Below, piece by piece: positions 1,057 to 61,117 of a stretch of 64,000 nt of DNA. Position 1 is the first letter of the stretch. Each line of letters begins with the position of its first letter. Position numbers and translations under genes: made by a program. Origin of the DNA: Candidatus Melainabacteria bacterium 17Bon1m (lineage in GTDB: Bacteria; Cyanobacteriota; Vampirovibrionia; Obscuribacterales; Obscuribacteraceae); assembly GCA_032128875.1 (NCBI GenBank), contig JAVLKG010000008.1, positions 96,001 through 160,000 of the forward strand, written 5' to 3'. Below the pieces are notes generated by a model, which saw only the letters and a list, made by a program, of their open reading frames with translations, did no database searches and was not told the origin of the DNA.

Positions 1057-1389
1057 AGTCATGCTCCTTATGGCGGCATAGGTCGACCCCGGTCGACATC
1101 TGCACGCGCGTTGATGCACTCGTTCTTGCAAGGGAACGAGCGCGGGTTTTGCTGATGTCGACTGACAGGTACCTTCGTTGCCGGGGACAACGCAGGTAAG
1201 ACCTTAGGGGTCTGTTTAACAGCGTCTTGCAAACGCAGGTCTTTTCTTTCGAGCCGTTTTTGGAAAGCCGTCTCGAATCTTTCGACTCTGCAAAGTCGAA
1301 GTAACTACTGCTTCCGTCGGGTGGACGGGGTTTTTAGTTCAGTTAGTTGAAGACTCCATTTGCAGAAAAGAAAGTGAAAAGATGCCTTG

Positions 1390-1419
1390 AATTTAGTAAT
1401 CGGAGCGACTTAAAAGCAA
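1390..1419 (-). promoter_or_regulatory. Putative sigma70-type promoter TTGCTT-N18-TAAATT for the peptidase
   Basis: -35 at 1414-1419 and -10 at 1390-1395, just upstream of a folded leader. Confidence 0.45.
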
Positions 1420-1904
1420 TGGCTTCGCTAAGGCCCTGAGCCATAGCCTAGAGCTATTAGAGCGACATTTCGGGCGCGCCCGTCATAAGACTTACGTTGA
1501 AAATCCGCCGCATATCGGGCGCGACAGCAAAGAGATATACATTACGCACCTCTGCCACCGCAGTTAGCGGGGGTGCAAGAGTCGAAACCGGTCGTTGGAA
1601 TTAACAAATCTAAGAGCTTGCTAATCTGGCGCGCGCTAGGGCAACCCTTACCGGATTCGGGAAAACCACAGAATGAAAAACCTAGCAGAGCCGCGCTGAT
1701 GATTGCAGGCACTAAAACGGCGCAAAATCCGTAAAGTAATGCAAAACGGGGGTTTTCGGTCAAAAAGCTAGCGGAAATTAGCGCTCGCTCATCTGCAATA
1801 AATGTAAGAGGCCTAGATAAGTGCGCGCGCGAACTCTCTTAGATCACCTGATCTCCGCTCATGAAATTCAAAAGCATTACTAGTTCACGTTTTGTACAAA
1901 AGGC

Positions 1905-1934
1905 TTGCTTGACAAGTATCGAATTTCTTAGTCT
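1905..1934 (+). promoter_or_regulatory. Putative promoter TTGCTT-N18-TAGTCT
   Basis: AGGCTTGCTT at 1901 is identical to 59401; precedes the 1941-2414 structured leader. Confidence 0.45.
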
Positions 1935-1940
1935 CAGATC

Positions 1941-2414
1941 ACATTCACTTCTACTTCTTGCAAAAAACGGACAAGACAAGCCCTTAAATCAATCCAGGTC
2001 TCAGCTTCCAGCTAAAACATCCGGCACTCATGTGCTTGGGACAAAAACGAACCTGGTGTGGCGACGAATCCGTGTGAGCAAGAGAAAGTGGTGTTTCGAA
2101 GTATGACGCGTTCGCTGTTCTTCTCCGACTGTCTGTCCAGGTGGAGAACAACTTCGAATCGTCTAAACGCATGGACGTCTTAGCACAACTAATGAACGCG
2201 CGAGTGTTCATCAGTGGTGCGGACTAAAGTGCCCTTCTCAATTCCACAGCAACAACGAGTTGGACTGATGTCGCCTAGCAAACGACTGATGTTGCAGCTC
2301 TTTCTTGCTGAACGTGCGTTTGAGAGGACAGTCTCAAGCGCGGATGCATCGGTAGAACAATCTTGATTGTTCCGCATGACGGAGCTTGCTTCGCCAATGC
2401 GGGAAAGGAGACCT
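1941..2414 (+). ncRNA. Large structured 5' leader / candidate cis-regulatory RNA
   Basis: Nested stems (CCAGGT/ACCTGG, TGGCGA/TCGCCA, ATCCGTGT/GCGCGGAT, GCGA-tetraloop hairpin at about 2183-2220); the 5' end can pair with the SD. Confidence 0.5.
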
Positions 2415-2894: not shown

Positions 2895-3130
2895 ACCACC
2901 ATCTGGAGCGGTTTCTATCGGGGCGCTTAGAAGGGCACCCCAAACCCGACCAAGTGTGAGCCAACACTAAGACGGGTGCCCGTCTCGTGTTCAGACGTTC
3001 TGAACACGAGCGGGCGCTAGACCGTCTCGCATAGTTCGTGTAACGACGCTGCGAAACGGCTCCTTCCATCGAAAAGCTGCTTGCCATCTCAGGCGGCAGT
3101 TCTAAAGCTCAAAAATGAAGGAGCTCAAAA

Positions 3131-3898: not shown

Positions 3899-4004
3899 CG
3901 CTCCGCATTCTGTAGGCATTAGCCACATCGTCCGTTCGGGGCGCGCGCACTGCTCAATCCGGGCAGCTGTGCGCGTCCCCACCTAACGAGAAGGATGGTA
4001 TACC

Positions 4005-5465: not shown

Positions 5466-5666
5466 TCCATCGAGTCAGTGCCGACGTCTGTGCCAGGGCG
5501 AAGCTCGAAGCGCAGACGAAGGCGTCGACTAGGTGAGGCTGTTGCAGCAGCTTGGGGGGTTAGCGGTGCGAACTGCGCCTCCCAGGCTGAAACAGCAGCG
5601 AAAACGGTGGTGGCACAGTGCCATCACCGGCGGTGTTCTCAACATCAACTGAAAGGGCACGACTTT

Positions 5667-6008: not shown

Positions 6009-6114
6009 CTCGAACTATCGGGCTGCATTCCGGCTCCCGGCGGCGCAAGCCGTCGGGGGCTGGTCGGCAGTGCAGGGTGATACTCATGATCGAATGTCCA
6101 TCTAGGAGAAAGCC

Positions 6115-6348: not shown

Positions 6349-6444
6349 CAAGAAGGGGACGGGTCGCAGTTCCCTAACAAAGGGGCGGGCAGCGTTTAGC
6401 CAACTGAACAACAGTTGGTTGGCGCTGCCCGTCCTACAGCGGCC

Positions 6445-6520
6445 AGACTGGCGTCCGGAAGGGGTTTTCATTCGAGTCATCGAACGATTTCCTCCCCTTA
6501 CCGGCACGTCAGTCTTTTTT
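6445..6520 (+). terminator. Long hairpin followed by a U-run, closing the 2415-6348 operon
   Basis: AGACTGGCGT-CCGG-AAGGGG...CCCCTT-CCGG-ACGTCAGTCT-TTTTT. Confidence 0.55.
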
Positions 6521-6929
6521 GCGCGCTTCTACTATTTCACACAGTATACCATAGAACGACATAGCCATGCCGTTTTTCGAAGCATCATCAACTTTCTGCC
6601 GAAGGCAGTCTGCTGCCACCACGATGATTTTATTCTCCGCAGGCGGCAGAAGAACAATAGAACACCTGGCTACTCATCAGACTCTCAATCGTTTCCAGCA
6701 CCCACAGATCTATGCAGATTTCAGACTGTGTGCAATAGTAGTGATATCCGTGCACGGATTTCCAAGCTAAGAAGAAGCAGTCACATTCAAGTTTTCGCGC
6801 TAACACCGCTCTTTTGAGAGCGGTTGCCCGCCATTAGAGCTTTTCAGATTTTAGTTCGGCAAATCATGTGACCCCGCTTCAAAGTGGCTCGAAGAGCTGT
6901 TTCGAGCAGGTCTCACCAGGTATGTCATC

Positions 6930-10323: not shown

Positions 10324-10622
10324 CGCTCTGAGATAGCGGCGCTCTAGAATTCATTCTGGACGTCGTCGCCTCTCTCAAGGGGCAGGGGATGTGGTCTAAC
10401 AGCCATGTCCCCTGCTTCTTCTGGCTGTCTTCAAAGGAAAGGCACATGCGTGTGCTTTTCCTTTGCAGACACTCCGTCTGCAGGAGATGCCCAGAGCATC
10501 TTCTTTCCGCGGGTTACTGACTGCTCCAACAGCAATGAAAAAAACATTGGGGTATTGAGGAATCCGCACATCACCACCGGAATGCTGCAGTAATGCACGC
10601 ATTCCCAAGCAAGGATGAAACT

Positions 10623-11675: not shown

Positions 11676-11979
11676 GTCGGGTACCTCGTGATGTCATTCG
11701 CGAACCGCATATAATCGCGGTTTCAACAGGTTATCTCTTTCAGAACAGGGAGTCCAAACGTTCATTCTATCCGCCTGAAAGTTGGCGAAAGTCATTAGGG
11801 CGAGCCAAGTTTACGAAGGTTTTCTTCGCGAACCTTTCCCACCCTCTGCTACTGCGCATAGTACAAATATGTTTTAAAGGAAACGAGCCTGGCATCACGA
11901 TTGCCGAAGCAATTGCAATGACCAGGTCGTTTCCAAAACTCAACTCGAACGCGTTCGACAGTTACAACGCGTTCAAAAC

Positions 11980-12912
11980 CTATAGCGCGTTCGACATCTC
12001 GTAGAGATCGTCGGCGAGCTTTTCGATCTTGGCGCGGTCAGCGACCTTTGCCAGCCACTGCGCGGGAATCGCATCGACACCCAGATAAGCGCCGGCGATC
12101 TGACCGTAGATGGCTGCCGTCGTATCCGCATCGTCGCCGAGATTGGCGGCGAGCAGACAGCCGGTTTTGAAGTCGTCCGATTTGTAGAATGCCCACAAAG
12201 CGGCTTCCAGAGCCTTCGCCGCGTAGCCGCTGCCTTTGATTGTCGGCGGCTCGTTCGTCTTGAACGAACCACCAGCAATCTCGGCAATCTCCTTGCACAG
12301 CGGGAACTTGTCCCAGTAGCCAGGCTCCGGACCGTAGTTGGCGCCGAGGAGAGTTTCCTTGCTCTCGCCGTTGAGCGCCCCAACGATAATCGCTGCCATG
12401 TAGCGGCAAGCGTCGACGGCGACGGTGGCACCATGAGTGGTGCGCGAACTTTCTGCGGACTTCTCGACAGCGTTGGCGGCGTCATTGAAGTACACCAGCG
12501 GAACTGGCGCCAAGCGCATGATCGAGCCGTTGCCGGCCGTGTACGGATCGGTAGAACCGGCGTACGGATTGCTGCCGTTTTTCTCGAATTTGGCGAGCGC
12601 TGCGCTGACGGTATTGCCGATGTCGAAGCATTCGCCGTTGCTGCTCATGTAGCCTTCGCGCCACCAGCGAACGTAGCGTTCCATCTGGTCTTTGGCGTCG
12701 AAGCCGAAACACTCGATAAGGCTAGCCGCCAGGCAAAGCGCCATCGAGGTGTCGTCAGTCCATTCGCCGGCCTTGAGTTTGAACGGACCGCCGCCGACCA
12801 TGTCGGAGATGGGTTCGAACGTGCCGGGCGGCATGAACTCGAGCGTGGTGCCTACCGCATCGCATGCAGCAAGACCAAGCATTGCACCGCGGAATCGTTT
12901 CTTTAGACGCAT
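11980..12912 (-). CDS. ADP-ribosylglycohydrolase (DraG/ARH family)
   Basis: GLAACDAVG, WTDDTSM, AGNGSIMR, GDDADTTAAIYGQIAGA. Confidence 0.95.
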   Translation of the reverse strand: MRLKKRFRGAMLGLAACDAVGTTLEFMPPGTFEPISDMVGGGPFKLKAGEWTDDTSMALCLAASLIECFGFDAKDQMERYVRWWREGYMSSNGECFDIGNTVSAALAKFEKNGSNPYAGSTDPYTAGNGSIMRLAPVPLVYFNDAANAVEKSAESSRTTHGATVAVDACRYMAAIIVGALNGESKETLLGANYGPEPGYWDKFPLCKEIAEIAGGSFKTNEPPTIKGSGYAAKALEAALWAFYKSDDFKTGCLLAANLGDDADTTAAIYGQIAGAYLGVDAIPAQWLAKVADRAKIEKLADDLYEMSNAL

Positions 12913-13123
12913 TGATTCATCCCTGATTCAATTGGTTTGCGTTTCGGGTGAGGTTGGCCCAAAGCGTTTGCGCGACGCACCAATTATGGCAGATGCGTCA
13001 TGCGAACGAGTGGGGATTGCGACAGGGAGCGGACCTCCAGATGGAATCCATCGCACCGCATTGCTGCAGCGCAACTTCATCCACTTTCGAGATCCGCTCC
13101 CGCGCAATGATGTCCAGTGCTGA

Positions 13124-14173
13124 TTACTCAGCAGCGACCGGCTGAGCAGGCGTCGCAGCCTGGAACGCCTTCTTATCCTCTTCCGTGAGGAGAGTGAAAG
13201 CGGGGTCGGACAGGAAGCGAACCGGCATAATCGGATCGAGCATGCCGGTGCCAAGGCCGAGCAGACCCGTTCCGTAGCGGTTGGTCTTCACGCCGAGGCG
13301 GGCGTACAGCTCCAGGCATGCGCCGATGCAGGTCCAGTGACTGGCTGCGCGGCGGCCGGTGAAAAGACCGAACCAGTCGTAACCGGTGACGGTCAGCTTG
13401 CTCTTGATCCAGTTTTTCGCGAAGCCAGGCAGCGGAACATACCGCAGCACCTTGTCGCGCGTAGCACGAGCTTCCTGACGCCAGCGGTCGTTCTCCTTGA
13501 GCATGACGCGGCAGAGCTTCGGCATCAGCTCGAGCTCTTCGGCAGTGAGCGGATGATTGAGCCGCATGACCACGTAGTGACCGCGGCTTTCCGGCTTGCG
13601 CGTAAGAACCTCGACGCGGTTGAACACCGTGCCGTGTTCCATATACGAGCTGAAAGCCATGAGCTTGCCGTCTTCCTGCAGCACCACCACTTCGCCGTGA
13701 CCAACCGATTCATGCAAGCGAGTGGCGATGCGGCCGGAGGTGAGGATGAGGTCGCCGGGGCGCAGCACTTCCTTGGGTGGGTTGATCCAGGTGCCCTTCG
13801 GCAGCGGTCCGTGCCCCTTAGTCATGTACTGCTTGCGGTTGCGCCGGTAGAGCGCATAGACACCGCCCCAAGCGAGAAGCTCGGCTACGGCAGCGATGAG
13901 AATCGACTGCGAATCGGTGCTGTAAACCGCCAGACCCGCCAGCGCCAAACCTGTCCACATGGGCAGGAGCACCTTGAGGCGGGAGAAAAGATCGAAGTAG
14001 GTCGTGAACAGCTGGCGCATGCCGAGCACCGTGAGGGCGAGCCAGAAACCGCTCACCGCCAGGCAACTCAGACTAAACTCCCAGCTCAGACCACCGTGGA
14101 ACCACAGCCAGGTCATGTAGCCCAACAGAATGTAGGACGACTGACCAGCGAACTTCATGATGCGATAGAACAT
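13124..14173 (-). CDS. Membrane protein with a permuted NlpC/P60 (YiiX-like) papain-fold domain
   Basis: 3-4 N-terminal TM helices; LRPGDLIL, GHGEVV (His), YDW, WTCIG (Cys), PIMP. Confidence 0.7.
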   Translation of the reverse strand: MFYRIMKFAGQSSYILLGYMTWLWFHGGLSWEFSLSCLAVSGFWLALTVLGMRQLFTTYFDLFSRLKVLLPMWTGLALAGLAVYSTDSQSILIAAVAELLAWGGVYALYRRNRKQYMTKGHGPLPKGTWINPPKEVLRPGDLILTSGRIATRLHESVGHGEVVVLQEDGKLMAFSSYMEHGTVFNRVEVLTRKPESRGHYVVMRLNHPLTAEELELMPKLCRVMLKENDRWRQEARATRDKVLRYVPLPGFAKNWIKSKLTVTGYDWFGLFTGRRAASHWTCIGACLELYARLGVKTNRYGTGLLGLGTGMLDPIMPVRFLSDPAFTLLTEEDKKAFQAATPAQPVAAE

Positions 14174-14378
14174 AGGAAACTTCTTCCTGCGCTTTCGCGC
14201 GTTTGTTTAGCAGAGTGGCGGAGCGCCGCTCTGCAAGGAAACACACATAGATTCGTGGCGTTCCTTTGTTTTGAACCTCAGGCAGGGCGACACCGCATTC
14301 GGTGCAACCCTTATGCGTGACAAGGAAAAGGGCAGCGGTTTTGACCGCTGCCCTTGCCTCAAACTATTGATTCATCAC

Positions 14379-14403
14379 GGTCGACGCATGGCGTCGACCC
14401 TAC
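14379..14403 (-). repeat. GTAG-type REP palindrome
   Basis: Reverse strand reads GTAGGGTCGACGCCATGCGTCGACC. Confidence 0.65.
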
Positions 14404-14431
14404 AAATAAGCGCTCGCGTCCCTGCGACTGT

Positions 14432-15259
14432 TTACCTTGCGACCCAGCCGCCGTCCATCACCATCGTTTGACCGGTGATGTTAGCTGCCGCAGGTCCGGC
14501 AAGGAAAACAGCCATTTCGCCGATTTGATCGACCTCGGTGAAGCGCTTGCTAGGTTGCTTTTCTTCGAGCAGTTTCACTGTTGCTTCTTCAATCGAGATG
14601 CCGTTCTTCGCAGCGAGCGCCTCAATCTGTTTCTCCACAAGCGGGGTGCGAACCCAGCCCGGGCAGATGGCGTTGGCAGTGATGCCGTTTTCTGCATTCT
14701 CGAGCGCCACCACTTTGGTGAGCCCGACAATGCCGTGCTTGGCGGCGACGTAAGCAGCCTTCTCGGCTGAGGCAACCAAACCGTGCACGGACGCGATATT
14801 GATGATGCGCCCGAATCCGCCTTCCTTCATCTTAGGCAGCGCCGCCTTCATGGCATGAAATGCTGCGCTCAGATTGATGGCGATGATTTGATCCCACTTC
14901 TCGGCCGGGAAGTCTTCGAGGCGGGAAGTATGCTGGATGCCGGCATTATTGACGAGAATGTCTACGCCGCCGAACAAGTCGGAGGCGTAGTCGATCATGT
15001 CGACGATGTCGGCAGGATTTTGCATGTTGGCGGCGTGGTACTGAACCTCGACACCATGCTCATCGGCGAGTGCCTGGCGAGTCTTTTCGACCTCAGCCGC
15101 ATCACCCAGTCCGTTGAGCAAAACTGAAGCACCGTTTCTGGCGAACGCCTTGGCGATCCCCAGACCAATGCCGCTCGTGGAGCCGGTGACAATCGCCACC
15201 TTGCCTGCAAGCGGACGCGTGTCCGTCGTGGACTTCGCTGCTTTGGTTTTGCGTGCCAT
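14432..15259 (-). CDS. bdhA: 3-hydroxybutyrate dehydrogenase (SDR)
   Basis: TGSTSGIG, NNAGIQH, SVHGLVASAEKAAYVAAKHG, ICPGWVRTPLVEKQI, LLEEKQPS. Confidence 0.93.
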   Translation of the reverse strand: MARKTKAAKSTTDTRPLAGKVAIVTGSTSGIGLGIAKAFARNGASVLLNGLGDAAEVEKTRQALADEHGVEVQYHAANMQNPADIVDMIDYASDLFGGVDILVNNAGIQHTSRLEDFPAEKWDQIIAINLSAAFHAMKAALPKMKEGGFGRIINIASVHGLVASAEKAAYVAAKHGIVGLTKVVALENAENGITANAICPGWVRTPLVEKQIEALAAKNGISIEEATVKLLEEKQPSKRFTEVDQIGEMAVFLAGPAAANITGQTMVMDGGWVAR

Positions 15260-15452
15260 TTCAGTCTCTCTATCTGATGTTTGAACCATGACTTACCTGC
15301 TCAAAGGAAAAAACTCTTGCCTCGCGACATGGAGTCGCGGCTGCGATGACCTTGCGAGTTAATCGCAGCAAGCATACGCTTTAATTTTGCGGTCACTATG
15401 AACCGCGCGTTTGCTTTTGGCAAGAGTTTCTATTTAAGCGGGCGTCACCATC

Positions 15453-16331: not shown

Positions 16332-16451
16332 GTAGATCTCCTTTCGGATTCTAGTGATTAGATTCAAGGGTAACGGGCAATTATTGAGCCTCCTTCTACC
16401 CTGACTATTTGCAAGAAAACGCACGCACGAACACCATTGTCCGCGCGTGCG

Positions 16452-16475
16452 GTAGGGGCGGCATTAATGCCGCCC
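16452..16475 (+). repeat. GTAG-type REP palindrome
   Basis: GTAGGGGCGGCATTAATGCCGCCC. Confidence 0.6.
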
Positions 16476-16544
16476 GCCGATGCCTTAGGAAAAGCAGGCG
16501 AGCCGCCTGCGGTTCCCCTAAACGAGAGAGAAAGAGACAGCGCC

Positions 16545-19501: not shown

Positions 19502-19873
19502 GGGATACCTTCCTGTGCAATATGCACGCGAGCACCAATTACACCATGACGCGGGCAGCAAGTCTCGCTTGTAAACCAGGCGTGACAAGGCTTTGCACCG
19601 CGCAATCGTGAAACTTCTGCTGCTCGCTCGTAGATAGAACTTGCCGTGCATTGTGTACGACAAGGAACTTTCAAAAGCCCTTGCGCAGTTTCGATTCGTC
19701 GAGAACCGGCGCAAGGCATCGTCAACACTTCATCCAGACGCCCTAGAGTTCTGAGAACAATCAATTCGTGTGGTATCCGTCCTCTCTCGAGGAATCTAGG
19801 TATAAGTGGAGACGAGCACGAATAGTTAGTTTACGGAAATTACTTGGGGCTGGAAGAAATGAGGAGTGTTTAA

Positions 19874-19903
19874 AATTTAGGAGTTCGGTCGTGTATGTAC
19901 CAA
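19874..19903 (-). promoter_or_regulatory. Putative promoter TTGGTA-N18-TAAATT for the tldD operon
   Basis: Same -10 and spacer as the promoter at 1390-1419. Confidence 0.4.
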
Positions 19904-20292: not shown

Positions 20293-20439
20293 GACGAGCC
20301 CCAAAATCGACTCCCATGCTCTATGCAAGAGGAGACGCCAGTCAGCGACTAAAAACGCTAGGCGCCACATGTGCATTGATGGGCGCGCTCCTTTTCGGAG
20401 CATGCCTACTCACAAAAGACAAAACTGAAAGCGAAGGCT

Positions 20440-24776: not shown

Positions 24777-25130
24777 ATTGCTTCTTTAGGTCACCACCCC
24801 CGCCATTTCGTGCTGCCAAATTTACGCGCGAATTCTTCCAGTCTCGAATTTCGGAAGGCAGAGAGACTGTTACTTGCCACGCTTGTCGCCAGGTCCTTTT
24901 TCGGCTGTTGTTTGCAGTCGACGGTGACACGTAGCTGGGTGGGAAATGGCGCTGTTCCGGCACGAACAGTTCCTATCGGGGCGTTCTCCATGGTGGAAGC
25001 GCCGTTCTTAACCAGCACTGCCGGTGGTGCCGCTCTTCGGTGGACGGACATTCATGTCGTCCGCGAGGAGTAGCACAGCGTTCCAAACACCGGTAGCTGC
25101 AAACCTCATCATGAAAGAGGAGCAATAAAA
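24777..25130 (+). ncRNA. Structured 5' leader of the orphan-ftsH-rseP operon
   Basis: Stems CGCCATTTC/GAAATGGCG, CAGTCTC/GAGACTG, CTGCCGGTG/CACCGGTAG; 11-bp anti-SD pairing. Confidence 0.5.
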
Positions 25131-28096: not shown

Positions 28097-28518
28097 GTGC
28101 CTCGTAGGGGGTGACCTAGTGTTGCCCCCGCGCCAGGCGCTTATGCGCGACACACTCAGGTAGGGCTGGGCACCACATTCGGTGATCAGTCCTTCCTGCC
28201 CGACGGCTCACAAAGCCGTTCGGGCAAAACGCAGCGGGAGTCAAAGCCCGGGCTGTGGCCGCTTGAGATAAGCAATCTCATAAACCGCGATGCTCGCATT
28301 GCGGAAGCCGACGGTAAGAAATCGGCGAACAACAATCTGTGGAACCCTGCAATTTGCGCAGGTTCCTCATGTCCTCACGCCTGCTCCGGCAGCCGTGGTT
28401 GCAACTCTCAACGGGAGCATTCCCGAACCAATTACGGTGGTTTTCACCGGCTGCTTGGCGCACACAGAGTGCCTTGCAGGAAATGAAGCGCTGACGCGCT
28501 TTTTTGGAGTAACTAAAC

Positions 28519-29658: not shown

Positions 29659-29807
29659 CGCCAAGACGGAAAGCAGTCCGCTCTGGTCGTCCGTGAGCAA
29701 CGCAAACGCTGCCCGTAAAAAGGCGGCGTTTGCGTTCTCAAACTTAACCGCGGTGTAAATGCCGCACTACATGCGCTGCGAAAAACGACAGCGCAGTGGG
29801 GAATACC

Positions 29808-30047
29808 ATGCAAGAATTTCTGCATGCCAGTTGGCCTGTTCTGGCGATAATTTTCGTCCTCTCGGCATCGATTACGATGTTCTCCAAGCAGATCGCGGAC
29901 TTCCTGTTCGCTCCGAAACCGGGTGGTCATCCGCTCGTTCAGGTGTTCAAGCTCATGGCTTACATGATGACTTGGATCTTCTTGCCCATCGCAACTGCGG
30001 TGGTCGCCTTGATGAGCCTCATCGCTCTCATTGGCGCCTTTGCATAG
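29808..30047 (+). CDS. Small 2-TM membrane protein
   Basis: GGGGAA RBS; two hydrophobic helices. Confidence 0.65.
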   Translation: MQEFLHASWPVLAIIFVLSASITMFSKQIADFLFAPKPGGHPLVQVFKLMAYMMTWIFLPIATAVVALMSLIALIGAFA

Positions 30048-30859
30048 CCAAGGACGCATTGGCCTGAGCGTTTCCTGTGCGCCGGTTGGATACACGATGA
30101 AAGTCGTGTGTCCCGCCTGCGCATCTGGAAACGTCTCTTTTTGCGGCCGCCTTACTACTCTCTTTAGTATATTTATTCAATTCGTAGATGTTTCAACCCC
30201 CCACTGCTTTACAATGAAAGGAAGCGAACACTCCTACGCACCGTATTTGGTGCTCCGCCGATAATCCTTATGACAGACGAAAAGGACAATAAGAGGCTCA
30301 TTGGCGTCGGGCCAATTGAGCTAAGAGAGAGTCCTTTCTATTCTTGTTGAACTCAGAAAGAAGAAGAAGAAGAAGTTATAACTGGTTTGCTCGAATTCTT
30401 TGTCACCCAAACCACTCCATCTTCCTCAAACAATTTCGAATCGTTTTTGTCTCATTAAAACTGGTTTGCGATTTAATCAAACCTCTGAAGACTCGCACAT
30501 CGAGCGCATCTACGCGTGAGTCGTGCGATGTTCGCCAAATTATTGCAGTAAAAACCGCAATGAAAACGATGAAAAGTTCAAACAAATACTTGGTTTTGCC
30601 TGTTGCCAAGAGGTACGTTCTTAGTACACCTTTTCTCCCTTTTGCACACCCGGACAATCAACAAACACAGACAAAACAGCACTATCCGCTGAATGTACGT
30701 CGAACAATGCGTTCGACAGTCGCCCACCGATTTCACCGCCACCCCCGCTTGAAAGACAAACTGGCTTGCCAAGCCGGTTTGTGCACAACTTAGCGCAAAC
30801 AGCACAAGAAGTCTCACATCAAATCTCTCCGGCAAGACCGGAAGAAAGAGAAACCGACA

Positions 30860-43136: not shown

Positions 43137-43280
43137 GACTTTGGTAGATGGGGCAGCTCTATTTTTGTGCCACTTAGATCTCTAAAGCACTCGTAGCAAG
43201 AGGAAATTCGCCAGCTTCTACTATTTCTTTTAATAACAAAAGCACCAAAACGAAAGGCTAGAGAAGCCTCTCAAATCGAA

Positions 43281-43300
43281 GAAACGGGCGTACCCGTTTC
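43281..43300 (-). repeat. UNCG-capped hairpin, copy 1
   Basis: GAAACGGG-TACG-CCCGTTTC on the sense strand. Confidence 0.8.
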
Positions 43301-43332
43301 CTCCACTTTGGGAAAACCTAGAGCTGATGCGC

Positions 43333-49994: not shown

Positions 49995-50702
49995 CTACTC
50001 CGGCACGTGAACGTCGAGGTCAACGATCACGCGCTCGCCAAGTTCGGCGAGCACTTTGTTCTCCAACACATATTCGCGCACTCCGCGCTGACCATCATGA
50101 CGATGGGTGTAACCATCGCCTGAGAACAGCTCGGTGAGCCGAACGGTGTGATAGAGGAAACGCCTGACGGCAAGAGCGTCGCCCTTGCTTTCCAACAGTC
50201 GCGCCACGGTCATGAAGAGCGGGTCTTTCTGACCGGCGGCATGCACCTCAGCGAAGCTAAAACCGGCTCGCTTCTGCCATTCGGCAAAAGAAGTTTTCTT
50301 CAGCTCGCGGGCAGCGGCATCGACCAGATGTTTTACTTCCGGATAATGCTCGCCGACCGAGGCCAGGACACCATTCCAGGTGGCTGACCGCATGCCCTTC
50401 TGGCGGCGGAATACGACGAGGCTGAACTTGGTTCCGGCAACGACCTCACGCTCGATGTACTCGGCCGTGTGACCAAGTTCGAGCAGCATGTCGAAGCCGT
50501 TTTTGCCAAGCAAGCGCTCGATTCCGCTCGGCCCCATGACCATGGTGACGCGTCTGTCGCGCTCCTCGGCAAGTACCACTGGAGTCTTGCTGCGCGAGCG
50601 GACAAGCCGCGCATACAAGTTTCTCAGCTTGGCCTTCTTGCCGTCGGAACGCTGGCGTTTATCTCCTCCAAGAACCAGTCGTTCGATGGACTTTTGTCTC
50701 AT
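49995..50702 (-). CDS. Hypothetical protein (possible ADP-ribosyltransferase-like fold)
   Basis: AGGAGA RBS; C-terminal LFSGDGYT..GVREYV. The fold assignment is speculative. Confidence 0.75.
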   Translation of the reverse strand: MRQKSIERLVLGGDKRQRSDGKKAKLRNLYARLVRSRSKTPVVLAEERDRRVTMVMGPSGIERLLGKNGFDMLLELGHTAEYIEREVVAGTKFSLVVFRRQKGMRSATWNGVLASVGEHYPEVKHLVDAAARELKKTSFAEWQKRAGFSFAEVHAAGQKDPLFMTVARLLESKGDALAVRRFLYHTVRLTELFSGDGYTHRHDGQRGVREYVLENKVLAELGERVIVDLDVHVPE

Positions 50703-50830
50703 TTTGGTTCTCCTGACTCGGACGATCGAAAAGGAGGAAACGCGCAGCAGAAGCCGGACGCCGCCGAGCAACCCGACCTTGCGGTCAAGCTGTTCGAGCA
50801 ACCCCCGGCGCTGCGCAGAAATAGTGACGA

Positions 50831-52102
50831 CTACTTGCCGCCGGCAGTGGAAGCAGCTTCGGCCGGTTTGACCGGCGCGATCACTTCCATGAAAACGGGC
50901 AGGTGGTCGCTGAAGTCCTTCGTCCAGAAGAGCAGGTCGCGCTTCAAAGTCGGGAATGCCGGGATCCAGCATTGCACCGTGAGCCCGTCCATGCCCTTCG
51001 TGAAGAAGCCGTCGAACTGCCCGCTTTCGTTGCGGAACTGGTACGACGGGCGACCGTCGACGACGGGCTCCAGCTTGAAGCCGTAGTCGAAGAGAGGTTT
51101 GGTCTCGGTGGTCGTCGCCTTCTCGAGTGCGGCATTGAAGTCGCCGCCCATGATGATCTTCGTGGTAGGAAGATCCGCGACCGAGTAGTCGACCGCCGGA
51201 CGCGTTTTCTTCGGCGCACCGCCCGTGGTAGCAGCCGAATCGGCAGCTTCCGACTTCGCCTGCCCCGCAGTCGGCGCCTTGCGACGCTGATACGGCGACT
51301 TCTCGGCCTGGCGCTTGAACTCCTCCACCATCTGCTTGTTCGAGAACTCGCGAATGGGGCGGGTCGCATCAGGACCGCCGACGTTGGACTTGGTGTGCAC
51401 GTTGACGAAGTCGTAGACCTCGCCGGTCAGCGTATCCAGCACGCGTTGCTGGATGGCGGGACGCAGCGTGTACTTGAACTCGGGATGACCAGGCACCTCG
51501 AGCAAGTAGTCGTGGTAAACCGCCTTCTTGCCGACGTACTCCAGGCGCGGATGCAGCAACATGCCGCACGCCTGCTCGCGATTGTTGCGATGGCTGGCGC
51601 AAACGCCGTAGCCCGCCGCTTTCGCGATCACCTTGAGCGCGTCGATATTGGTCTCCTGGAAGAGCACGATGTGAGCGCGCTTCACCAGTTCGACCAGAGA
51701 GTCGACGATGCGAGTCGCCTTGTCCTTGGTGAGCAGGTAACCGTTGAAGCTGACCACGACGAGGTTGCCCTCGTAGGTGACGAGCGGACGCTCGCCGATC
51801 ATCTTCATCACGACTTCCTTCACCTGCGCCGGGGACGCAGGCACCCAGGGACGACGACCGCCGGGCTTTTTGGTCTCGCCCGTTTCGTTGTCGAATTCAC
51901 CGCCGGCCTTGCTGGCGATGACGGCTTGCGCAAGCGGATTGCCGGCGGCGGCGAGCTTGGCGATTTCCGCCAGAGTCTCATTCGCCCAGGGCAGCCGATT
52001 GGCTTGAATGCAGGCATCCAGAAGCGCAATCTGCGTCTTCAGGTCACCCGACGTCTTGACGAGAGCATCGCGGACGGCGTCCGCTGTTTCAGATTTGCTC
52101 AT
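50831..52102 (-). CDS. Endonuclease/exonuclease/phosphatase (EEP) family protein
   Basis: VSFN, LFQET, NVHTKS, MGGDFNA, FSDHLPV. Confidence 0.88.
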   Translation of the reverse strand: MSKSETADAVRDALVKTSGDLKTQIALLDACIQANRLPWANETLAEIAKLAAAGNPLAQAVIASKAGGEFDNETGETKKPGGRRPWVPASPAQVKEVVMKMIGERPLVTYEGNLVVVSFNGYLLTKDKATRIVDSLVELVKRAHIVLFQETNIDALKVIAKAAGYGVCASHRNNREQACGMLLHPRLEYVGKKAVYHDYLLEVPGHPEFKYTLRPAIQQRVLDTLTGEVYDFVNVHTKSNVGGPDATRPIREFSNKQMVEEFKRQAEKSPYQRRKAPTAGQAKSEAADSAATTGGAPKKTRPAVDYSVADLPTTKIIMGGDFNAALEKATTTETKPLFDYGFKLEPVVDGRPSYQFRNESGQFDGFFTKGMDGLTVQCWIPAFPTLKRDLLFWTKDFSDHLPVFMEVIAPVKPAEAASTAGGK

Positions 52103-52190
52103 TGACAGTCTCCAATTTCTGGGTGCGCTGTGGCGCGCACCCTCTAGAGCCGCTCTGCGATAAGCTCTGCAGGCGGTTCGACACCCTTCT

Positions 52191-52243
52191 GCAGGGGCGG
52201 CGCAAGCGCCGCCCTGTCAGGGAGCCGCATGCGGCTCCCCTAC
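52191..52243. repeat. Inverted REP doublet
   Basis: GCAGGGGCGGCGCAAGCGCCGCCC plus TCAGGGAGCCGCATGCGGCTCCCCTAC (27 nt identical to 56856-56882). Confidence 0.85.
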
Positions 52244-52261
52244 GAAGGCGAAGAGATGGAA

Positions 52262-53398
52262 TCAAGCGACCTTGAGCTGGCCGCTCGTCTCCAAATGCTT
52301 GCGGAATTTCTGGCACACAGTCTTGTGGTACTGCGTGCAGTCTTCCGCGGGAACCAGCCCGTAGAGGTAAGCGAGCTGCTCCTTCTTGGTCGGCTTGTCG
52401 GTGACAGCCATGAGGGTGGCGACGATTTTGTCGGCGTCATCCTTGACCTCGAAAGGCAGGTCGGCGAACTTCTCTTCGAGCTTTCCTTCAAGCACGCGGA
52501 GCATGATGTAACGCGGATTGAGCTTCTCCTGGATCATCTTGCCGATGTATCCAGCGCACTTGTACTTGACCCGACGGTCAGGCCAGCGCACGACGAAGCC
52601 CTCCTTGTTCTCGAACTCGGGGCGCTTGACGAAAGCCTTGAGCTCATCGATCGACTTGAACTGCCAACGCTCCACGACGCGCAATCCGAGCGTGCCGCCG
52701 ATTTTCGTCAGGTCGTTGTAGTCGAGGTCGAGCAGAGTCCGCTTGCTGTAAGCAGCCAAAAGACAAAACTCCACCTTCCCGGCGTAGTCGAGGATGACCT
52801 GAGTTTCGGGATGGATGAACTCGGCAAGGACGGTCATACCCTTGGGGAACGAATCAGCCCACTCATCCTGCTTTTCAGCGAGGATTTCGTTGGCGATCTG
52901 AGCAGACTTGCTCTCGAACGAACCGCGGGTGGTGGCAATCACCCGGCCGCGATAGTGGAAGATAATCGCAAGGTGCCCATCTTCCTTCACCATCACTTCG
53001 AACGGACCATCGGGCAGGTCCTTGGTTTCGGCGTGCTCGCCGACGTTGAAGAATTTGGGGAAGGGGAAGGCAACGAGCGTGCCACGGCGATCGAAGACGA
53101 TGCCGCGGCAGAGCCGAATCGCTGGCGTCCAGCCGTGCTCGAAAGCATGCAGCGTGACGTGAGCGACTTCGGTGTAGTTGAGTCCGACAAGCGGAAGCTC
53201 GCGATGGAAGAACGGTCGGATCAAGCTGGTGACGGAAGGCATTCCCGTCTCACGCTTGTAGCCGAGGCACTGAGCCATGAACTTTTCGTTCGCAGGGACG
53301 CGCTTCCATTCGTTCCAGTCCTTGGGGCTGGAGACACGATCAGAGACGAGACGAGCGACGAAAGCCTTGAGCTGCTTGAGAGATTCTTTGGTGGTCAT
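52262..53398 (-). CDS. T4 Rnl1-type ATP-dependent RNA ligase
   Basis: CRGIVF, PFPKFFNVGE, KEDGHL (motif I), TRGSF, AEFIHP..VILDY, EGFVVR, RVKYK. Confidence 0.9.
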   Translation of the reverse strand: MTTKESLKQLKAFVARLVSDRVSSPKDWNEWKRVPANEKFMAQCLGYKRETGMPSVTSLIRPFFHRELPLVGLNYTEVAHVTLHAFEHGWTPAIRLCRGIVFDRRGTLVAFPFPKFFNVGEHAETKDLPDGPFEVMVKEDGHLAIIFHYRGRVIATTRGSFESKSAQIANEILAEKQDEWADSFPKGMTVLAEFIHPETQVILDYAGKVEFCLLAAYSKRTLLDLDYNDLTKIGGTLGLRVVERWQFKSIDELKAFVKRPEFENKEGFVVRWPDRRVKYKCAGYIGKMIQEKLNPRYIMLRVLEGKLEEKFADLPFEVKDDADKIVATLMAVTDKPTKKEQLAYLYGLVPAEDCTQYHKTVCQKFRKHLETSGQLKVA

Positions 53399-53630
53399 TG
53401 CGTGTATTCCTTGTGTTTCACGAGTCCGGCTGAAAGCCGAACGAAATTGCGCCCCCGCTTTTTGGCGGAGGGTGCGAAATGCCGATACCCGAATCACAAA
53501 CTGCACAGACCAAACACGCACAAACGGCCGCACACACACTTCCTCAGAAGGCGCATGTTTCCGGTGGGACGTAGGCTGGAATTACAGTTTCAGTGACTCG
53601 TATCGGCTAAGGAATTCTTGAATAGATAGG
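53399..53630 (-). ncRNA. Structured 5' leader of the RNA ligase operon
   Basis: Approx. 125-nt imperfect hairpin (GCCGATAC/GTATCGGC, GAGTCAC/GTGATTC, AAACTGTA/TGCAGTTT) inside an anti-SD stem. Confidence 0.55.
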
Positions 53631-56814: not shown

Positions 56815-56828
56815 ATCCTTCCACAAAG

Positions 56829-56968
56829 GTAGGGGAAGCGCATGCGCTTCCCTGCTCAGGGAGCCGCATGCGGCTCCCCTACACTCGTAAGGGGTCGGCG
56901 CTCCCCTACACTCGTAAGGGGTCGGCACTCCCCTAAACTCGGAAGGGAGTCGAGCATGCGGCTCCCTT
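56829..56968. repeat. REP cluster plus a 27-bp tandem repeat (x approx. 3)
   Basis: GTAGGGGAAGCGCATGCGCTTCCC, an inverted REP, then CTCCCCTACACTCGTAAGGGGTCGGC(G/A) at 56874, 56901 and degenerate at 56928. Confidence 0.9.
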
Positions 56969-57143
56969 CCTTTTTGAAAAACAGCTACTACACGTTTTAA
57001 TATCAACCGGTAACGCTTTGATAACAACTTCTCCCTAAGTTTTCCCTATCTTGGCAGTAGCCGCCGATTCAGATTCGCGGTGGCAAACATCTTTCGATTA
57101 TCGGATTCTCAAGCGACACGCTCGCTTTCACGGAGCAACTTAA

Positions 57144-59047: not shown

Positions 59048-59404
59048 CGAAAACCCCAGAGAGCCCGTATCCCAGTATCCAATAGATTACACGCCAGTCG
59101 GTAACTCGCGCAAAATAGATGTTCCCGGCAGGATGGAAAACATCTCTCTTGATTCGATGTTTTTTCCAGGAAGAAAAACAGACACGCGCCAGGTGCTATT
59201 GGGGGGGGCTGCAAGAGAAGCAATCTGAAACGCGCTTAAGGCGCCAGGCTACGACCTTAGCGGGGCTAAGAAACGATGCCAAGACCTCCTAGCGACGACG
59301 CGCTAGGTTTTAACTGCCAATTAAGCGTTGTTCAGGTCGCCCATTTAATAAGCTTTCGAAGAGTTATTGCGTCCAAGACCTTAGCAGACAACTGGTTACA
59401 AGGC

Positions 59405-59433
59405 TTGCTTCCAAGGCCATTCTTCTTCAGGGT
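59405..59433 (+). promoter_or_regulatory. Putative promoter TTGCTT-N17-CAGGGT
   Basis: AGGCTTGCTT shared with 1901; AGGGT shared with 53636. Confidence 0.35.
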
Positions 59434-59700
59434 GAAACTATTGTTTTCCACTCTCTGCACTTAAGTTTTGCTGCTCTAAAACTCCTGAACGTCTAATACC
59501 CGTTCATCTCGATGTTTTTACTTCACCCCAGGAGTGAAGGGCGGCTGCTTGCGTGCTTGGTGAACAGTTCCGGAGATGCGAAATGGCTTCGTGTCTCTGT
59601 TCAATCACGCCCGAATTTCGCCTGGAAAGCGCGCTGCGCTCTCAGGCCGAAGGCGGGCGAATGTAACCACGGGAGATTCTCTCCCACTAGGAGTCTACGT

Positions 59701-60903
59701 ATGGAGAAACTGATTGGTTTACTAGGCATCGGACTGATTCTGGGTCTGGCCGTGCTGCTGTCCAACAACCGCCGCCACATCAACTGGCGTCTGGTTGTGA
59801 CCGGCATCGTCATCCAGGTCTTCTTTGCCTTCCTGATCCTGAAGGTGCCCTTCGTCAGGGGCATCTTCGACTCCCTCGGCAACGGCGTTCAGAACCTTCT
59901 GGATTCCGCCAAAGAGGGCGTCGCATTCGTGGCCGGCGATGAGCTTGCGAAGTCGAAGTTCATCTTCGCGCTCGTCATCGGCGGATCTATCGTTTTCGTG
60001 GGCGCGCTCACCAACCTGCTCTACCACTTCGGCATCTTGCAGAAGATCGTAAAGGGCCTCGGTTGGGCGCTGCGCAAGTCGATGCGCATCAGCGGTGCAG
60101 AAGCGCTGTCCGCCGGCGCCGAGGTCTTCCTCGGTCAGGTGGAATCGCAGCTGCTCATCTCGCGTTACATCAAGACGGTGACACAGTCCGAGCTCTTGGG
60201 CATCATGGCTTGCGCCATGGCGACCATCTCCGGCTCGGCGCTTGTCGCCTACGTCAGCCTCGGCATCGACCCGACTTACCTGCTCATGGCTTCGTTCATG
60301 ACTGCGCCCTCAGCGCTCGTCGTTGCGAAGATCATTGTGCCGGAGACGGACCCCAGCGCTCTCACGCGCGAAGTTGAGTTGGCCGACGAGCGTACCTCGG
60401 TGAACTTCATCGACGCGCTTGCCGACGGTGCTCAGCAGGGTGCCAAGGTCGCTGCCAACGTGATGGTGATGCTCGTCGCGTTCATCGCCGCGGTGGTGCT
60501 GTTCAACAAGGTGCTCGTTGGTCTGGGCTCGCCCTGGACGCTGCAGCAGATGGTCGGCTGGGCTTTCACGCCGGTCGCATACTTGCTCGGCATTCCCTGG
60601 GACGAAGCGGTCCGCGTCGGTCCGCTGCTCGGCACAAAGACCATCCTCAACGAGTTCATCGCTTACGTCGACCTCTCTGCCATGCAGAAGGGTGCCGAGG
60701 CGTTGTCGGCTCGCACGCTCATGATCACGACGGTCGCGCTCTGCGGCTTCGCGAATCTGGCGTCCATCGCCATCAACATCGGCGGGCTCACCGCGATGGC
60801 TCCCGAGCGCAAGAGCGACATCGCTCGCATGGGCTTCAAGGCACTGGTCGCAGCCACGCTGGCAAGCTGGCTGACGGCGGCGCTGGCTGGGTTGCTCATG
60901 TGA
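59701..60903 (+). CDS. nupC: CNT-family nucleoside transporter (NupC/NupG)
   Basis: LSNNRRHINWR, FLGQVE, MATISGS, KTILNEFIAY, LCGFAN. Confidence 0.93.
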   Translation: MEKLIGLLGIGLILGLAVLLSNNRRHINWRLVVTGIVIQVFFAFLILKVPFVRGIFDSLGNGVQNLLDSAKEGVAFVAGDELAKSKFIFALVIGGSIVFVGALTNLLYHFGILQKIVKGLGWALRKSMRISGAEALSAGAEVFLGQVESQLLISRYIKTVTQSELLGIMACAMATISGSALVAYVSLGIDPTYLLMASFMTAPSALVVAKIIVPETDPSALTREVELADERTSVNFIDALADGAQQGAKVAANVMVMLVAFIAAVVLFNKVLVGLGSPWTLQQMVGWAFTPVAYLLGIPWDEAVRVGPLLGTKTILNEFIAYVDLSAMQKGAEALSARTLMITTVALCGFANLASIAINIGGLTAMAPERKSDIARMGFKALVAATLASWLTAALAGLLM

Positions 60904-61117
60904 GTCTAACCACGACTGACGGCAGAGAACGACCAACTGGTCTGCAGTAACGTGCGGACTCGATTGCTCGCTCTCGAAAACGCGGAGCCGGGTGTTTCCA
61001 CTGCTGGAGGCATCCGGCTCTGCGCGCCGTCGCGGTCACTTTCTGTGTTCCGTTTCCCGCGTTGGCATGCGGTCCAAATCCGCAGCCAGCGTTAAACCTC
61101 AACCTGAGGGCCTCAAT

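What the first reader, a model, noticed from the sequence alone, without database searches (positions are those of the whole stretch)
1057..61117. Recurring architecture: long, fully folded leaders/spacers closed by a stem that locks the downstream Shine-Dalgarno
Seen in sequence: upstream of most GC3-rich genes lie 130-470 nt non-coding stretches made almost entirely of nested stems, with G-U pairs and GNRA/UNCG loops on the sense strand. In at least 7 cases a segment upstream, usually near the 5' end, can pair with the SD/start region: 1948-1962 with 2398-2410; 3058-3066 with 3117-3125; 5473-5482 with 5656-5664; 10350-10357 with 10612-10619; 24777-24787 with 25116-25126 (11 bp); 53609-53615 with 53406-53412; 59481-59487 with 59688-59694. 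The leaders share no obvious primary sequence and precede unrelated genes, so this is not one riboswitch family. Inference: a genome-wide class of translationally silenced, nuclease-protected mRNAs, for example stored for a life-cycle switch and opened by a helicase, temperature or processing. I know of no named system with this layout.
Basis: partly seen in the sequence, partly recalled or inferred. Interest (0 to 1): 0.8.

Follow-up and report, generated by a model that had tools for sequence, protein, structure and literature searches.

The report
Conserved RNA hairpins flanking GC3-rich genes

Summary
Partly confirmed. The spacers fold far better than dinucleotide shuffles: window mean z -1.6, and 36% of 163 windows fall below -2. 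The structure acts at the RNA level. G-U pairs and GNRA/UNCG loops favour the gene-sense strand. The consensus fold is stronger on the sense strand in 20 of 23 tandem spacers aligned with genus relatives, with compensatory changes.

The link to GC3-rich genes holds genome-wide. Their 3' flanks have mean z -3.6 and their true 5' leaders -1.9, against -1.1 and -0.6 for ordinary genes. These genes form a roughly 1.3 Mb compartment that 4 of 12 genus genomes lack.

The SD lock is not supported. Six of the seven pairings are chance-level and not conserved. Genome-wide tests are null. Only 3058-3066/3117-3125 survives, invariant in 6 of 6 genomes.

Long hairpins cluster about 30-50 nt after stops, and no Rho was found. 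Three spacers hold conserved multi-helix RNAs with no Rfam match. One of them (28157-28281) covaries strongly across 11 genera.

The parts
2895..3130 (+). Conserved multi-helix leader of the HAD-hydrolase gene (start 3131), called 'element A'. It includes an invariant 8-bp helix between 3058-3066 (anti-SD-like) and the SD at 3117-3125, which encloses a variable hairpin.
   Evidence: z -4.6 and -5.3. In 6 genomes there are 68 consensus pairs, 10 with changes on both sides, and the anti-SD/SD helix is 6/6 invariant. Covariance model R2 finds it only in the 6 genus genomes it was built from, out of 104 family genomes, one copy each. No Rfam hit.
3899..4004 (+). HAD-to-TruD spacer. A roughly 20-bp covarying hairpin sits between invariant flanks.
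   Evidence: z -3.85 on the sense strand against -0.82 on the antisense. Consensus energy in 5 genomes is -38.2 sense against -25.4 antisense, with 8 of 31 pairs changed on both sides.
5466..5666 (+). Hairpin array directly after the TruD stop codon. The last hairpin (about 5605-5629) and a short local helix next to the SD are conserved.
   Evidence: z -5.6 sense against -0.95 antisense. Fold. Alignment of 6 genomes. Consensus energy -32.3 against -14.1.
6009..6114 (+). Single long hairpin between two small ORFs.
   Evidence: z -4.5 sense against -0.7 antisense. Consensus energy -40.9 against -20.6 in 4 genomes.
6349..6570 (+). Two long hairpins after the stop at 6348. The second is followed by a run of T, so it looks like a terminator.
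   Evidence: z -5.4 and -4.7. Fold.
10324..10622 (+). Array of 4-5 hairpins. The first (about 10378-10420, roughly 50 nt after the stop) and the last (before the start at 10623) are conserved with compensatory changes. The middle ones come and go among relatives.
   Evidence: z -9.5. Fold. Alignment of 5 genomes.
24789..25130 (+). Ultra-conserved multi-helix leader of a 190-aa gene of no known family (start 25131), which is followed by ftsH.
   Evidence: In 7 genomes there are 103 consensus pairs at -110.5 kcal/mol, 11 with changes on both sides, and several invariant G-U pairs on the + strand. Indels are not multiples of 3. BLAST finds nothing in 75 family genomes of 36 other genera. Covariance model R3 finds it only in 7 genus genomes, one copy each.
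28157..28281 (+). 'Element B', a conserved small structured RNA motif in the ftsH-to-M50-protease spacer. A second invariant block follows at 28309-28329, and a short hairpin plus T-run lies at about 28488-28505, immediately before the M50 SD.
   Evidence: Alignments. Model R1 hits 26 of 104 family genomes in 11 of 37 genera, mostly one copy each. In the 21-sequence alignment 92% of cells are paired against 67.6% in shuffles (0 of 500 shuffles reach it), 33 of 39 pairs change on both sides, and slid controls give 39-49%. No Rfam hit.
29659..30197 (+). Hairpins after the M50 stop codon and after the next small ORF.
   Evidence: z -4.6 and -5.8. Consensus energy -39.3 against -29.6. Perfect stems at 29699-29736 and 30088-30113.
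11830..15452 (-). Stop-proximal hairpins of four minus-strand genes, in the spacers 11830-11979, 12974-13123, 14174-14431 and 15290-15452. The last spacer forms a domain closed by a long stem that ends next to the RBS of the SDR gene.
   Evidence: z of -5.6 to -6.7 on the - strand. Consensus energies favour the - strand. Closing stem of 15290-15452. RBS less accessible than in 25 of 25 shuffles.
43183..43332 (-). Hairpins directly after the stop codon of the gene at 43333-44169.
   Evidence: z -6.4 on the sense strand against -2.0 on the antisense. Fold.
59400..59701 (+). Structured leader of the nucleoside-transporter gene (start 59702). A conserved hairpin at 59671-59685 has a 3' arm that is SD-complementary and sits 2 nt before the SD at 59688-59694.
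Evidence: z -3.4 and -3.6. Alignment of 6 genomes.

Best explanation
The spacers carry genuine RNA structures that are selected on the sense transcripts of a distinct GC3-rich gene compartment in a Melainabacteria/Obscuribacterales genome. They are of mixed kinds.

(a) The commonest kind is one or several long hairpins, 12-20 bp and often without a U-tract, placed about 30-50 nt after a stop codon. I infer that these define and protect mRNA 3' ends, acting as termination or exonuclease blocks, in an organism where no Rho was found.

(b) There are also gene-specific, single-copy, long 5' leaders with invariant cores and covarying stems, at 2895-3130, 24789-25130 and 59400-59701. I infer that these are cis-regulatory RNAs. 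A few have a local or mid-range helix over the SD (3131, 5667, 15289) or a terminator-like hairpin just before the SD (28519).

(c) At least one conserved small RNA motif, 28157-28281, occurs in many genera in changing gene contexts.

Shown: the structure excess, the strand specificity, the positions, the conservation and covariation, and the link to the compartment. Inferred: the roles in termination, stability and regulation.
For: Structure excess.

Position: the density of long hairpins per kb is 1.49 in convergent gaps, 0.69-0.81 in tandem gaps and 0.29 in divergent gaps. The median distance from stop to hairpin is 31-53 nt, and 324 of 470 tandem-gap hairpins lie nearer the stop than the next start. 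Hairpin presence tracks the GC3 of the upstream gene (standardised logit 0.40) and not the downstream gene (0.02). There are 0.27 hairpins per 3' end for GC3-rich genes against 0.11 for ordinary genes.

RNA level: G-U bias, tetraloop bias, and a consensus fold stronger on the sense strand in 20 of 23 aligned tandem spacers, with pairs changed on both sides (my count from its table).

No Rho: the best hit scores 34.6 bits against a cut-off of 509 in a genome that is 93% complete. A paper passage says cyanobacteria lack Rho homologues and that conserved stem-loops mark 3' ends regardless of Rho (PMC13613805, passages seen).

True 5' leaders are also structured: z -1.91 in divergent gaps, where the median divergent gap is 844 nt for GC3-rich pairs against 210 nt for ordinary pairs.

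Conserved elements.
Against: No usable transcript data exist. The 'RNA' runs hold the region as 6-25 kb contigs of flat depth, like the DNA run.

Only 19% of the stop-proximal hairpins of GC3-rich genes are followed by at least 5 T in 9 bases, against 34% for ordinary genes. Classical intrinsic termination is therefore not shown.

Ordinary genes of the same Rho-less genome have much weaker 3' structure (z -1.1), so the absence of Rho cannot be the whole reason.

The cores of leaders A and 24789-25130 are invariant. That shows constraint, but it says nothing for or against the drawn helices.

The relatives are few (3-8 per spacer) and are not independent of one another.

Gene calls and start codons come from my own crude caller, and each z rests on only 15-30 shuffles.
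Confidence: 0.6

Rival explanations
1. The leaders are closed by a stem between a 5' segment and the SD/start region, so that a whole class of mRNAs is kept translationally silent until it is opened.
For: One case fits: 3058-3066 pairs with the SD of 3131, invariant in 6 of 6 genomes and present in the consensus fold. Its RBS is less open than in 92% of shuffles. The leader of 15289 is closed by a long stem that ends at the RBS, and its RBS is less open than in 25 of 25 shuffles. 12.9% of 139 GC3-rich genes have an RBS partner better than at least 95% of shuffles, where about 9.5% is expected with 20 shuffles and ordinary genes show 8.4%.
Against: Six of the seven claimed duplexes are matched by 69-100% of shuffled leaders, and their arms are not conserved or not compensated. 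There is no RBS occlusion in 26 of 28 window genes. The genome-wide duplex tests are null (including the 5'-end/RBS closing test, z -0.16). Most long hairpins are next to stop codons.
Confidence: 0.05
2. Most of the structure is regulatory and serves neither termination nor stability. On this view the spacers are a collection of many unrelated, undiscovered riboswitches, attenuators, thermosensors or small-RNA genes.
For: Three elements have invariant cores several helices long, in the style of an aptamer. A hairpin plus T-run sits right before the SD of the M50 gene, downstream of element B. True 5' leaders of GC3-rich genes are structured and long. Element B keeps its structure in other gene contexts.
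Against: Many spacer hairpins are simple, come and go between close relatives (spacer 10324-10622), and sit within about 50 nt of a stop codon, including in convergent gaps where no downstream gene exists to be regulated. There is no ligand, no family recurrence (single copy) and no Rfam match.
Confidence: 0.2
3. These are DNA-level palindromes, for example REP/MITE-like mobile repeats, protein-binding or recombination sites, or by-products of template-switch mutation, with no function in RNA.
For: Six of 48 gaps carry short dispersed repeats with 26-119 further copies in the genome. Both strands fold better than shuffles. GC3-rich coding sequence is also slightly over-structured on both strands (z -0.83 and -0.60).
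Against: 41 of 48 gaps are unique in the genome. G-U pairs and GNRA/UNCG loops are biased to the sense strand. Consensus folds favour the sense strand in 20 of 23 spacers. Compensatory changes keep the pairing while the sequence drifts.
Confidence: 0.07
4. This is an artefact. Either composition contrast between GC-rich genes and AT-richer spacers produces it, or contigs of a second organism were binned into this genome.
For: GC3-rich genes are concentrated on some contigs (C8 57%, C13 61%, C7 44%) and nearly absent from others (C1, C2, C4, C6 at 1-2%). Two rpoB-like loci exist. Estimated contamination is 4.5%.
Against: Dinucleotide shuffles control for composition, and covariation is independent of it. 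GC3-rich and ordinary domains are joined within single contigs: C5 is rich over 0-200 kb and ordinary over 205-603 kb, and C3 and C12 show the same pattern. Eight separately assembled species of the genus carry the syntenic region.
Confidence: 0.05

Closest known systems
Rho-independent (intrinsic) terminators, including U-tract-poor 'I-shaped' and tandem-hairpin forms described in Rho-poor or GC-rich bacteria (the latter recalled from memory, from no call)
   Same: A G+C-rich stem-loop on the sense strand a few tens of nt after the stop codon. Enriched at convergent gene ends. The organism lacks a detectable Rho.
   Different: The stems are unusually long (12-20 bp), often come in arrays of 2-5, and only 19% are followed by a T-rich tail. 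They are strongly concentrated on one gene compartment and not spread genome-wide.
REP/BIME-type extragenic palindromes that stabilise upstream mRNA against 3' exonucleases (E. coli; recalled)
   Same: Extragenic hairpins downstream of genes, with mRNA 3' protection as the plausible role.
   Different: REPs are a repeated sequence family. Here 41 of 48 gaps are unique sequence, and orthologous hairpins evolve by compensatory change.
Riboswitches, attenuators and RNA thermometers with SD-sequestering or terminator expression platforms
   Same: Long conserved 5' leaders with invariant cores and covarying stems. There is an invariant anti-SD/SD helix (element A) and a hairpin plus T-run before an SD (28488-28505).
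   Different: No match to any of 4227 Rfam families. Each leader is single-copy and limited to part of one genus. No ligand or signal is known. SD pairing is not a general feature.
Conserved 3' stem-loops at bacterial transcript ends irrespective of Rho dependence (PMC13613805; passages read)
   Same: The paper reports conserved stem-loops at primary 3' ends across lineages and notes that cyanobacteria lack Rho homologues.
   Different: That work concerns general 3' ends. It does not, in the passages I saw, describe a compartment-specific excess or long structured 5' leaders, and Melainabacteria are not mentioned (0 occurrences).

Membership tests
Intrinsic (Rho-independent) terminator | Stable G+C-rich stem-loop on the sense strand shortly after the stop codon | tested here: met
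   Median stop-to-hairpin distance is 31 nt in convergent gaps and 53 nt in tandem gaps. Density is highest in convergent gaps. Sense-strand bias.
Intrinsic (Rho-independent) terminator | U-tract directly after the stem | tested here: not met
   Only 19% of 139 stop-proximal hairpins of GC3-rich genes have at least 5 T in the next 9 bases, against 34% of 303 for ordinary genes. Some individual cases do have it (6349-6570, about 28488-28505).
Intrinsic (Rho-independent) terminator | Transcripts end at the hairpin | not testable with these tools
   The RNA-labelled runs are held only as long flat-depth contigs.
REP/BIME or MITE-like repeated palindromes | Many near-identical copies dispersed in the genome | tested here: not met
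   41 of 48 gaps have no second blastn hit in the 7.55 Mb genome. Six gaps hold short repeats with 26-119 other copies.
Known riboswitch, leader or sRNA families (Rfam 15) | Covariance-model match at or near the gathering score | tested here: not met
   0 hits at gathering score. At E<=5 there are 3 chance-level eukaryote-type or weak hits, none in the elements. None in 28050-28560. No tRNA or tmRNA.
Riboswitch (generic) | Conserved structured aptamer followed by an expression platform (SD-sequestering helix or terminator) upstream of the regulated gene | tested here: inconclusive
   Element A has a conserved core plus an invariant anti-SD/SD helix. Element B is followed by a hairpin plus T-run before the SD, but it occurs in other contexts elsewhere. 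No ligand is known.
   26 of 28 window genes show no occlusion against shuffles. Genome-wide tests are null. Six of seven claimed duplexes are at chance level.

The most novel reading that the evidence does not exclude
A chromosomal compartment of roughly 1.3 Mb with GC3 about 0.73, present in only part of an Obscuribacterales genus, runs under its own post-transcriptional regime. Its genes have very long spacers (median divergent gap 844 nt against 210 nt). They are systematically bracketed by conserved, covarying 5' and 3' RNA structures that the rest of the same genome lacks. This would give unusually stable or conditionally used mRNAs. The compartment also harbours several RNA families not yet described, including element B, which is conserved across at least 11 genera.
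Probability: 0.25. Interest if true: 0.75.

Novelty: new variant of a known kind. Interest (0 to 1): 0.5.

Why it matters
It replaces an attractive but unsupported mechanism, SD locking of stored mRNAs, with a tested picture of conserved sense-strand RNA structures. These lie mainly at 3' ends, with a minority of long regulatory-looking leaders.

Two things deserve follow-up. The first is the sharp contrast within one genome between a GC3-rich compartment with hyper-structured, long UTRs and the ordinary remainder. This offers a natural experiment on how mRNA ends are defined and stabilised in a Rho-less, uncultured cyanobacterial relative. The second is three RNA elements with no Rfam family. 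One of them has strong covariation across genera and is ready to be described as a new motif.

Tried and rejected
(1) Expression data. One run search and one lay were made. The three runs labelled RNA hold 21001-41000 as 6-25 kb contigs of flat depth across both strands, like the DNA run of the same sample. No transcript start, end or level can be read from them.

(2) Rfam at permissive thresholds found nothing relevant.

(3) The consensus promoter/terminator scan of 24016-30100 was at or below the shuffle expectation. It also missed the short hairpin plus T-run before the M50 gene.

(4) BLAST of the 24780-25135 leader against 80 family genomes found only 2 genus relatives. Covariance models of element A and of the 24789-24947 core found only their training genomes. 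No extra covariation could therefore be gained.

(5) NCBIfam and Pfam give no family for 10 small or hypothetical proteins downstream of leaders.

(6) The test for codon periodicity against G007 found no hidden genes in five long gaps (1156-2414, 24016-24700, 30048-30859, 6349-6929 and others). Four further gaps could not be aligned.

(7) GC3-rich as a 'highly expressed' class was rejected. EF-Tu has GC3 0.60, GroEL 0.54 and rpoB 0.60, against a class mean of 0.73.

(8) Literature. 'Melainabacteria' plus 'riboswitch' gave 4 papers, none on this topic by title (listing only). In PMC11347177 only a reference-list hit was seen.

(9) Scripts produced nothing useful. One search failed on a wrong frame and was corrected.

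(10) The apparent RBS occlusion at 49893 partly reflects my own mis-annotation. The 'upstream' sequence includes the 3' end of a conserved ORF at 49995-50972 on the - strand.


Full report
MATERIAL AND CAVEATS. The window is contig C8:96001-160000 of a 7.55 Mb, 35-contig assembly with 50% G+C. CheckM-type figures are 93% complete and 4.5% contaminated. Record titles of close relatives call them Candidatus Melainabacteria or Obscuribacterales MAGs. This agrees with an earlier scan note that calls the genome a non-photosynthetic cyanobacterial lineage. No gene finder was available. I called genes with a codon-usage log-odds caller trained on the genome's own long ORFs: 56 genes in the window and 5650 in the genome. 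I checked window genes with Pfam. These calls are crude, and at least one window gene was mis-called (49995-50972 on the - strand).

IS THE STRUCTURE REAL? Yes. I folded 163 intergenic 150-nt windows against 30 dinucleotide shuffles each. Mean z was -1.64 on the + strand and -1.51 on the - strand, with 36% and 33% of windows below -2. For 201 coding windows mean z was -0.88 with 18% below -2. MFE folds show series of 12-20 bp near-perfect, independent hairpins. The sequences are not repeats. 41 of 48 gaps have no second blastn hit in the genome, and six carry short dispersed repeats. Rfam finds nothing, and ARAGORN finds no tRNA or tmRNA.

WHERE DOES IT SIT? In the window, the most negative z values lie immediately after stop codons. 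Convergent gaps are structured at both ends and unstructured in the middle. For the genome-wide picture I ran a perfect-stem finder, requiring stems of at least 11 bp, at most 2 wobble pairs and loops of 3-10 nt. Hairpin density per kb was 1.49 in convergent gaps, 0.69-0.81 in tandem gaps and 0.29 in divergent gaps. The median distance from stop to hairpin was 31 nt in convergent and 53 nt in tandem gaps. 324 of 470 tandem-gap hairpins lie nearer the stop than the next start. In tandem gaps, hairpin presence depends on the GC3 of the upstream gene (standardised logit 0.40) and not the downstream gene (0.02).

The more sensitive z-score test shows that true 5' leaders, taken from divergent gaps where no 3' end can interfere, are also structured in the GC3-rich class. 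Mean z is -1.91 (49% below -2, n=82) against -0.62 (n=243) for ordinary genes. The 3' flanks give -3.60 (75% below -2, n=123) against -1.11 (n=246). Spacers of this class are also long. The median divergent gap is 844 nt against 210 nt, and the median convergent gap is 298 nt against 104 nt.

IS IT RNA OR DNA? RNA, on the gene-sense strand.
- Hairpins that need G-U pairs are 122 sense to 54 antisense in ++ gaps, and 133 to 58 in -- gaps.
- GNRA/UNCG tetraloops are 54 of 345 on the sense strand against 14 of 345 on the antisense (p 1e-6).
- Eight species of the genus carry the syntenic region at about 78-89% identity.
- Of 44 spacers of at least 80 nt, 27 could be aligned with 2-7 relatives. 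In 20 of the 23 tandem ones the RNAalifold energy is more negative on the gene-sense strand, with many pairs changed on both sides (alignments).

THE SD LOCK. All seven pairings can be written, but such pairings are expected by chance. Shuffled leaders give the RBS an equal or better partner in 100%, 10%, 99%, 100%, 69%, 100% and 100% of 300 shuffles. In relatives:
- The upstream arm of claim 3 lies in a segment that three genomes lack.
- The arm of claim 4 is deleted in three of four relatives.
- The arm of claim 5 is the 3' side of a variable local hairpin.
- Claims 6 and 7 show uncompensated changes and are not in the consensus fold.
- Claim 1 was not checked in relatives.
- Claim 2 stands. 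An 8-bp helix between 3058-3066 and the SD of the HAD gene is invariant in 6 of 6 genomes and encloses a variable hairpin.

RBS accessibility (-15 to +3, partition function, 25 shuffles of the upstream 180 nt) is not reduced in 26 of 28 window genes. The exceptions are 15289, whose leader is closed by a long stem ending at the RBS, and 49893, which is partly an annotation artefact. Genome-wide, the tests give the following.
- 207 GC3-rich genes: native best duplex -15.01 kcal/mol, against -15.07 with other leaders of the same class and -14.99 with the gene's own shuffled leader.
- 139 GC3-rich genes with 130-500 nt leaders: z -0.12 for the RBS against the whole leader, and z -0.16 for the 5' end against the RBS end.

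A recurring SD-locking stem is therefore not supported. A small minority of individual cases may be real.

INDIVIDUAL CONSERVED ELEMENTS.

(A) 2895-3130, upstream of the HAD gene. It has 68 consensus pairs, 10 with changes on both sides, and it is limited to six genus genomes, one copy each.

(B) 28157-28281, between ftsH and an M50 protease gene. A covariance model finds it in 26 of 104 family genomes (11 of 37 genera), mostly once per genome. In a 21-sequence alignment 92% of cells pair against 67.6% in shuffles (0 of 500 shuffles reach it), and 33 of 39 pairs change on both sides. Controls with slid partners give 39-49%. That alignment is fitted to the model, which favours the structure. 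Its gene context varies. FtsH and/or M50 lie within 1.5 kb in 5 of the 19 further hit loci examined (L144-L162), and in none of the other 14. In two genera it precedes a roughly 155-aa gene and a RapZ C-terminal-domain gene. It may be an independent small RNA.

(C) 24789-25130, upstream of a 190-aa gene of no family that precedes ftsH. It has 103 consensus pairs, long invariant blocks, invariant G-U pairs on the + strand, and indels that are not multiples of three. It was found only in seven genus genomes.

THE GENE CLASS. GC3 averages 0.536, but 626 genes have GC3 of at least 0.62, with a class mean of 0.73. They are clustered. On C8, C13, C7, C19, C18 and C15 they make up 37-61% of genes, while on C1, C2, C4 and C6 they make up 1-2%. 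The first 200 kb of C5, the first 110 kb of C3 and the first 30 kb of C12 are rich and are joined to ordinary sequence on the same contigs. They are not the highly expressed set: EF-Tu has GC3 0.60, GroEL 0.54 and rpoB 0.60. The window region was not found in G005, G009, G010 or G011, where G011 is 93% complete in 20 contigs. The window's archaeal-type ProRS is a second copy that G011 and G005 lack. The compartment is therefore accessory within the genus.

MECHANISM. Shown: conserved sense-strand structures next to stop codons and in 5' leaders of one gene compartment, and no detectable Rho. Inferred: the stop-proximal hairpins end and/or protect transcripts, and the long leaders regulate their genes. 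A paper reports conserved 3' stem-loops irrespective of Rho and states that cyanobacteria lack Rho homologues (PMC13613805, passages only). Several points count against a simple terminator reading. Only 19% of these hairpins have a T-rich tail. Ordinary genes in the same genome are far less structured. I could obtain no transcript data.

VERDICT. The proposed mechanism is not supported as a class. The components are known kinds: terminator or stabiliser hairpins, structured leaders and a small RNA motif. The compartment-specific concentration and three unclassified RNAs are new. Two literature searches and three look-ups in the scan's earlier findings turned up no prior description.

Noticed in passing
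genome contigs C5:1-200000, C3:1-110000, C12:1-30000, and most of C7, C8, C13, C15, C18, C19: GC3-rich genes (GC3>=0.62, class mean 0.73) form large domains that are joined to ordinary-GC3 sequence on the same contigs. The window region was not found in four of twelve genus genomes. The origin of this roughly 1.3 Mb accessory compartment is unknown.
   Followed up: partly
window 20440-21921 (-): The prolyl-tRNA synthetase here is of the type with the ProRS-C_1 domain, and it is a second copy. A different class-II ProRS-like gene sits on C1:41900-42352. G011 and G005 have only the latter.
   Followed up: partly
genome C9:262157-265288 (-) and C10:30269-33421 (+): There are two rpoB-like loci (ORFs of 1180 and 1615 aa), both with GC3 0.60. 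This could be a paralogue, a split or fused form, or contamination.
   Followed up: no
window 1156-2414: A 1.26 kb stretch without a called gene keeps its length in four relatives (1186-1284 nt) and is 81% identical to G007. It has no codon periodicity, and its folding z is near 0. It may be a conserved non-coding region, a decayed gene or an unstructured RNA.
   Followed up: partly
window 14174-14431, 16425-16544, 19715-20439, 36979-37094, 52103-52261, 56815-57143: Short (about 25-60 bp) dispersed repeats with 26-119 further copies in the genome sit in these gaps. They form a REP-like family distinct from the unique hairpins.
   Followed up: no
L147:1501-2597 (G109) and L148:469-1617 (G099): In two other genera the element-B RNA motif lies upstream of a roughly 155-aa gene of no family and a gene for a RapZ C-terminal domain. 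RapZ is an RNA-binding adaptor in enterobacteria (recalled). This hints at a link to RNA metabolism.
   Followed up: partly
window 50831-53397 (-): A T4 Rnl1-like RNA ligase gene lies next to an endonuclease/exonuclease/phosphatase-family gene. This could be an RNA repair pair. The RNA ligase gene (start 53397) has its own long conserved leader.
   Followed up: no
window 21001-41000 in runs X2-X4: Runs recorded as transcriptomic RNA-Seq contain contigs of up to 137-181 kb and cover both strands at flat depth. They behave like DNA libraries.
   Followed up: no
window 49995-50972 (-): This 325-aa ORF of no family shows a codon-like substitution pattern in relatives and is probably a real gene. 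My caller replaced it with a dubious 79-aa ORF on the other strand.
   Followed up: partly
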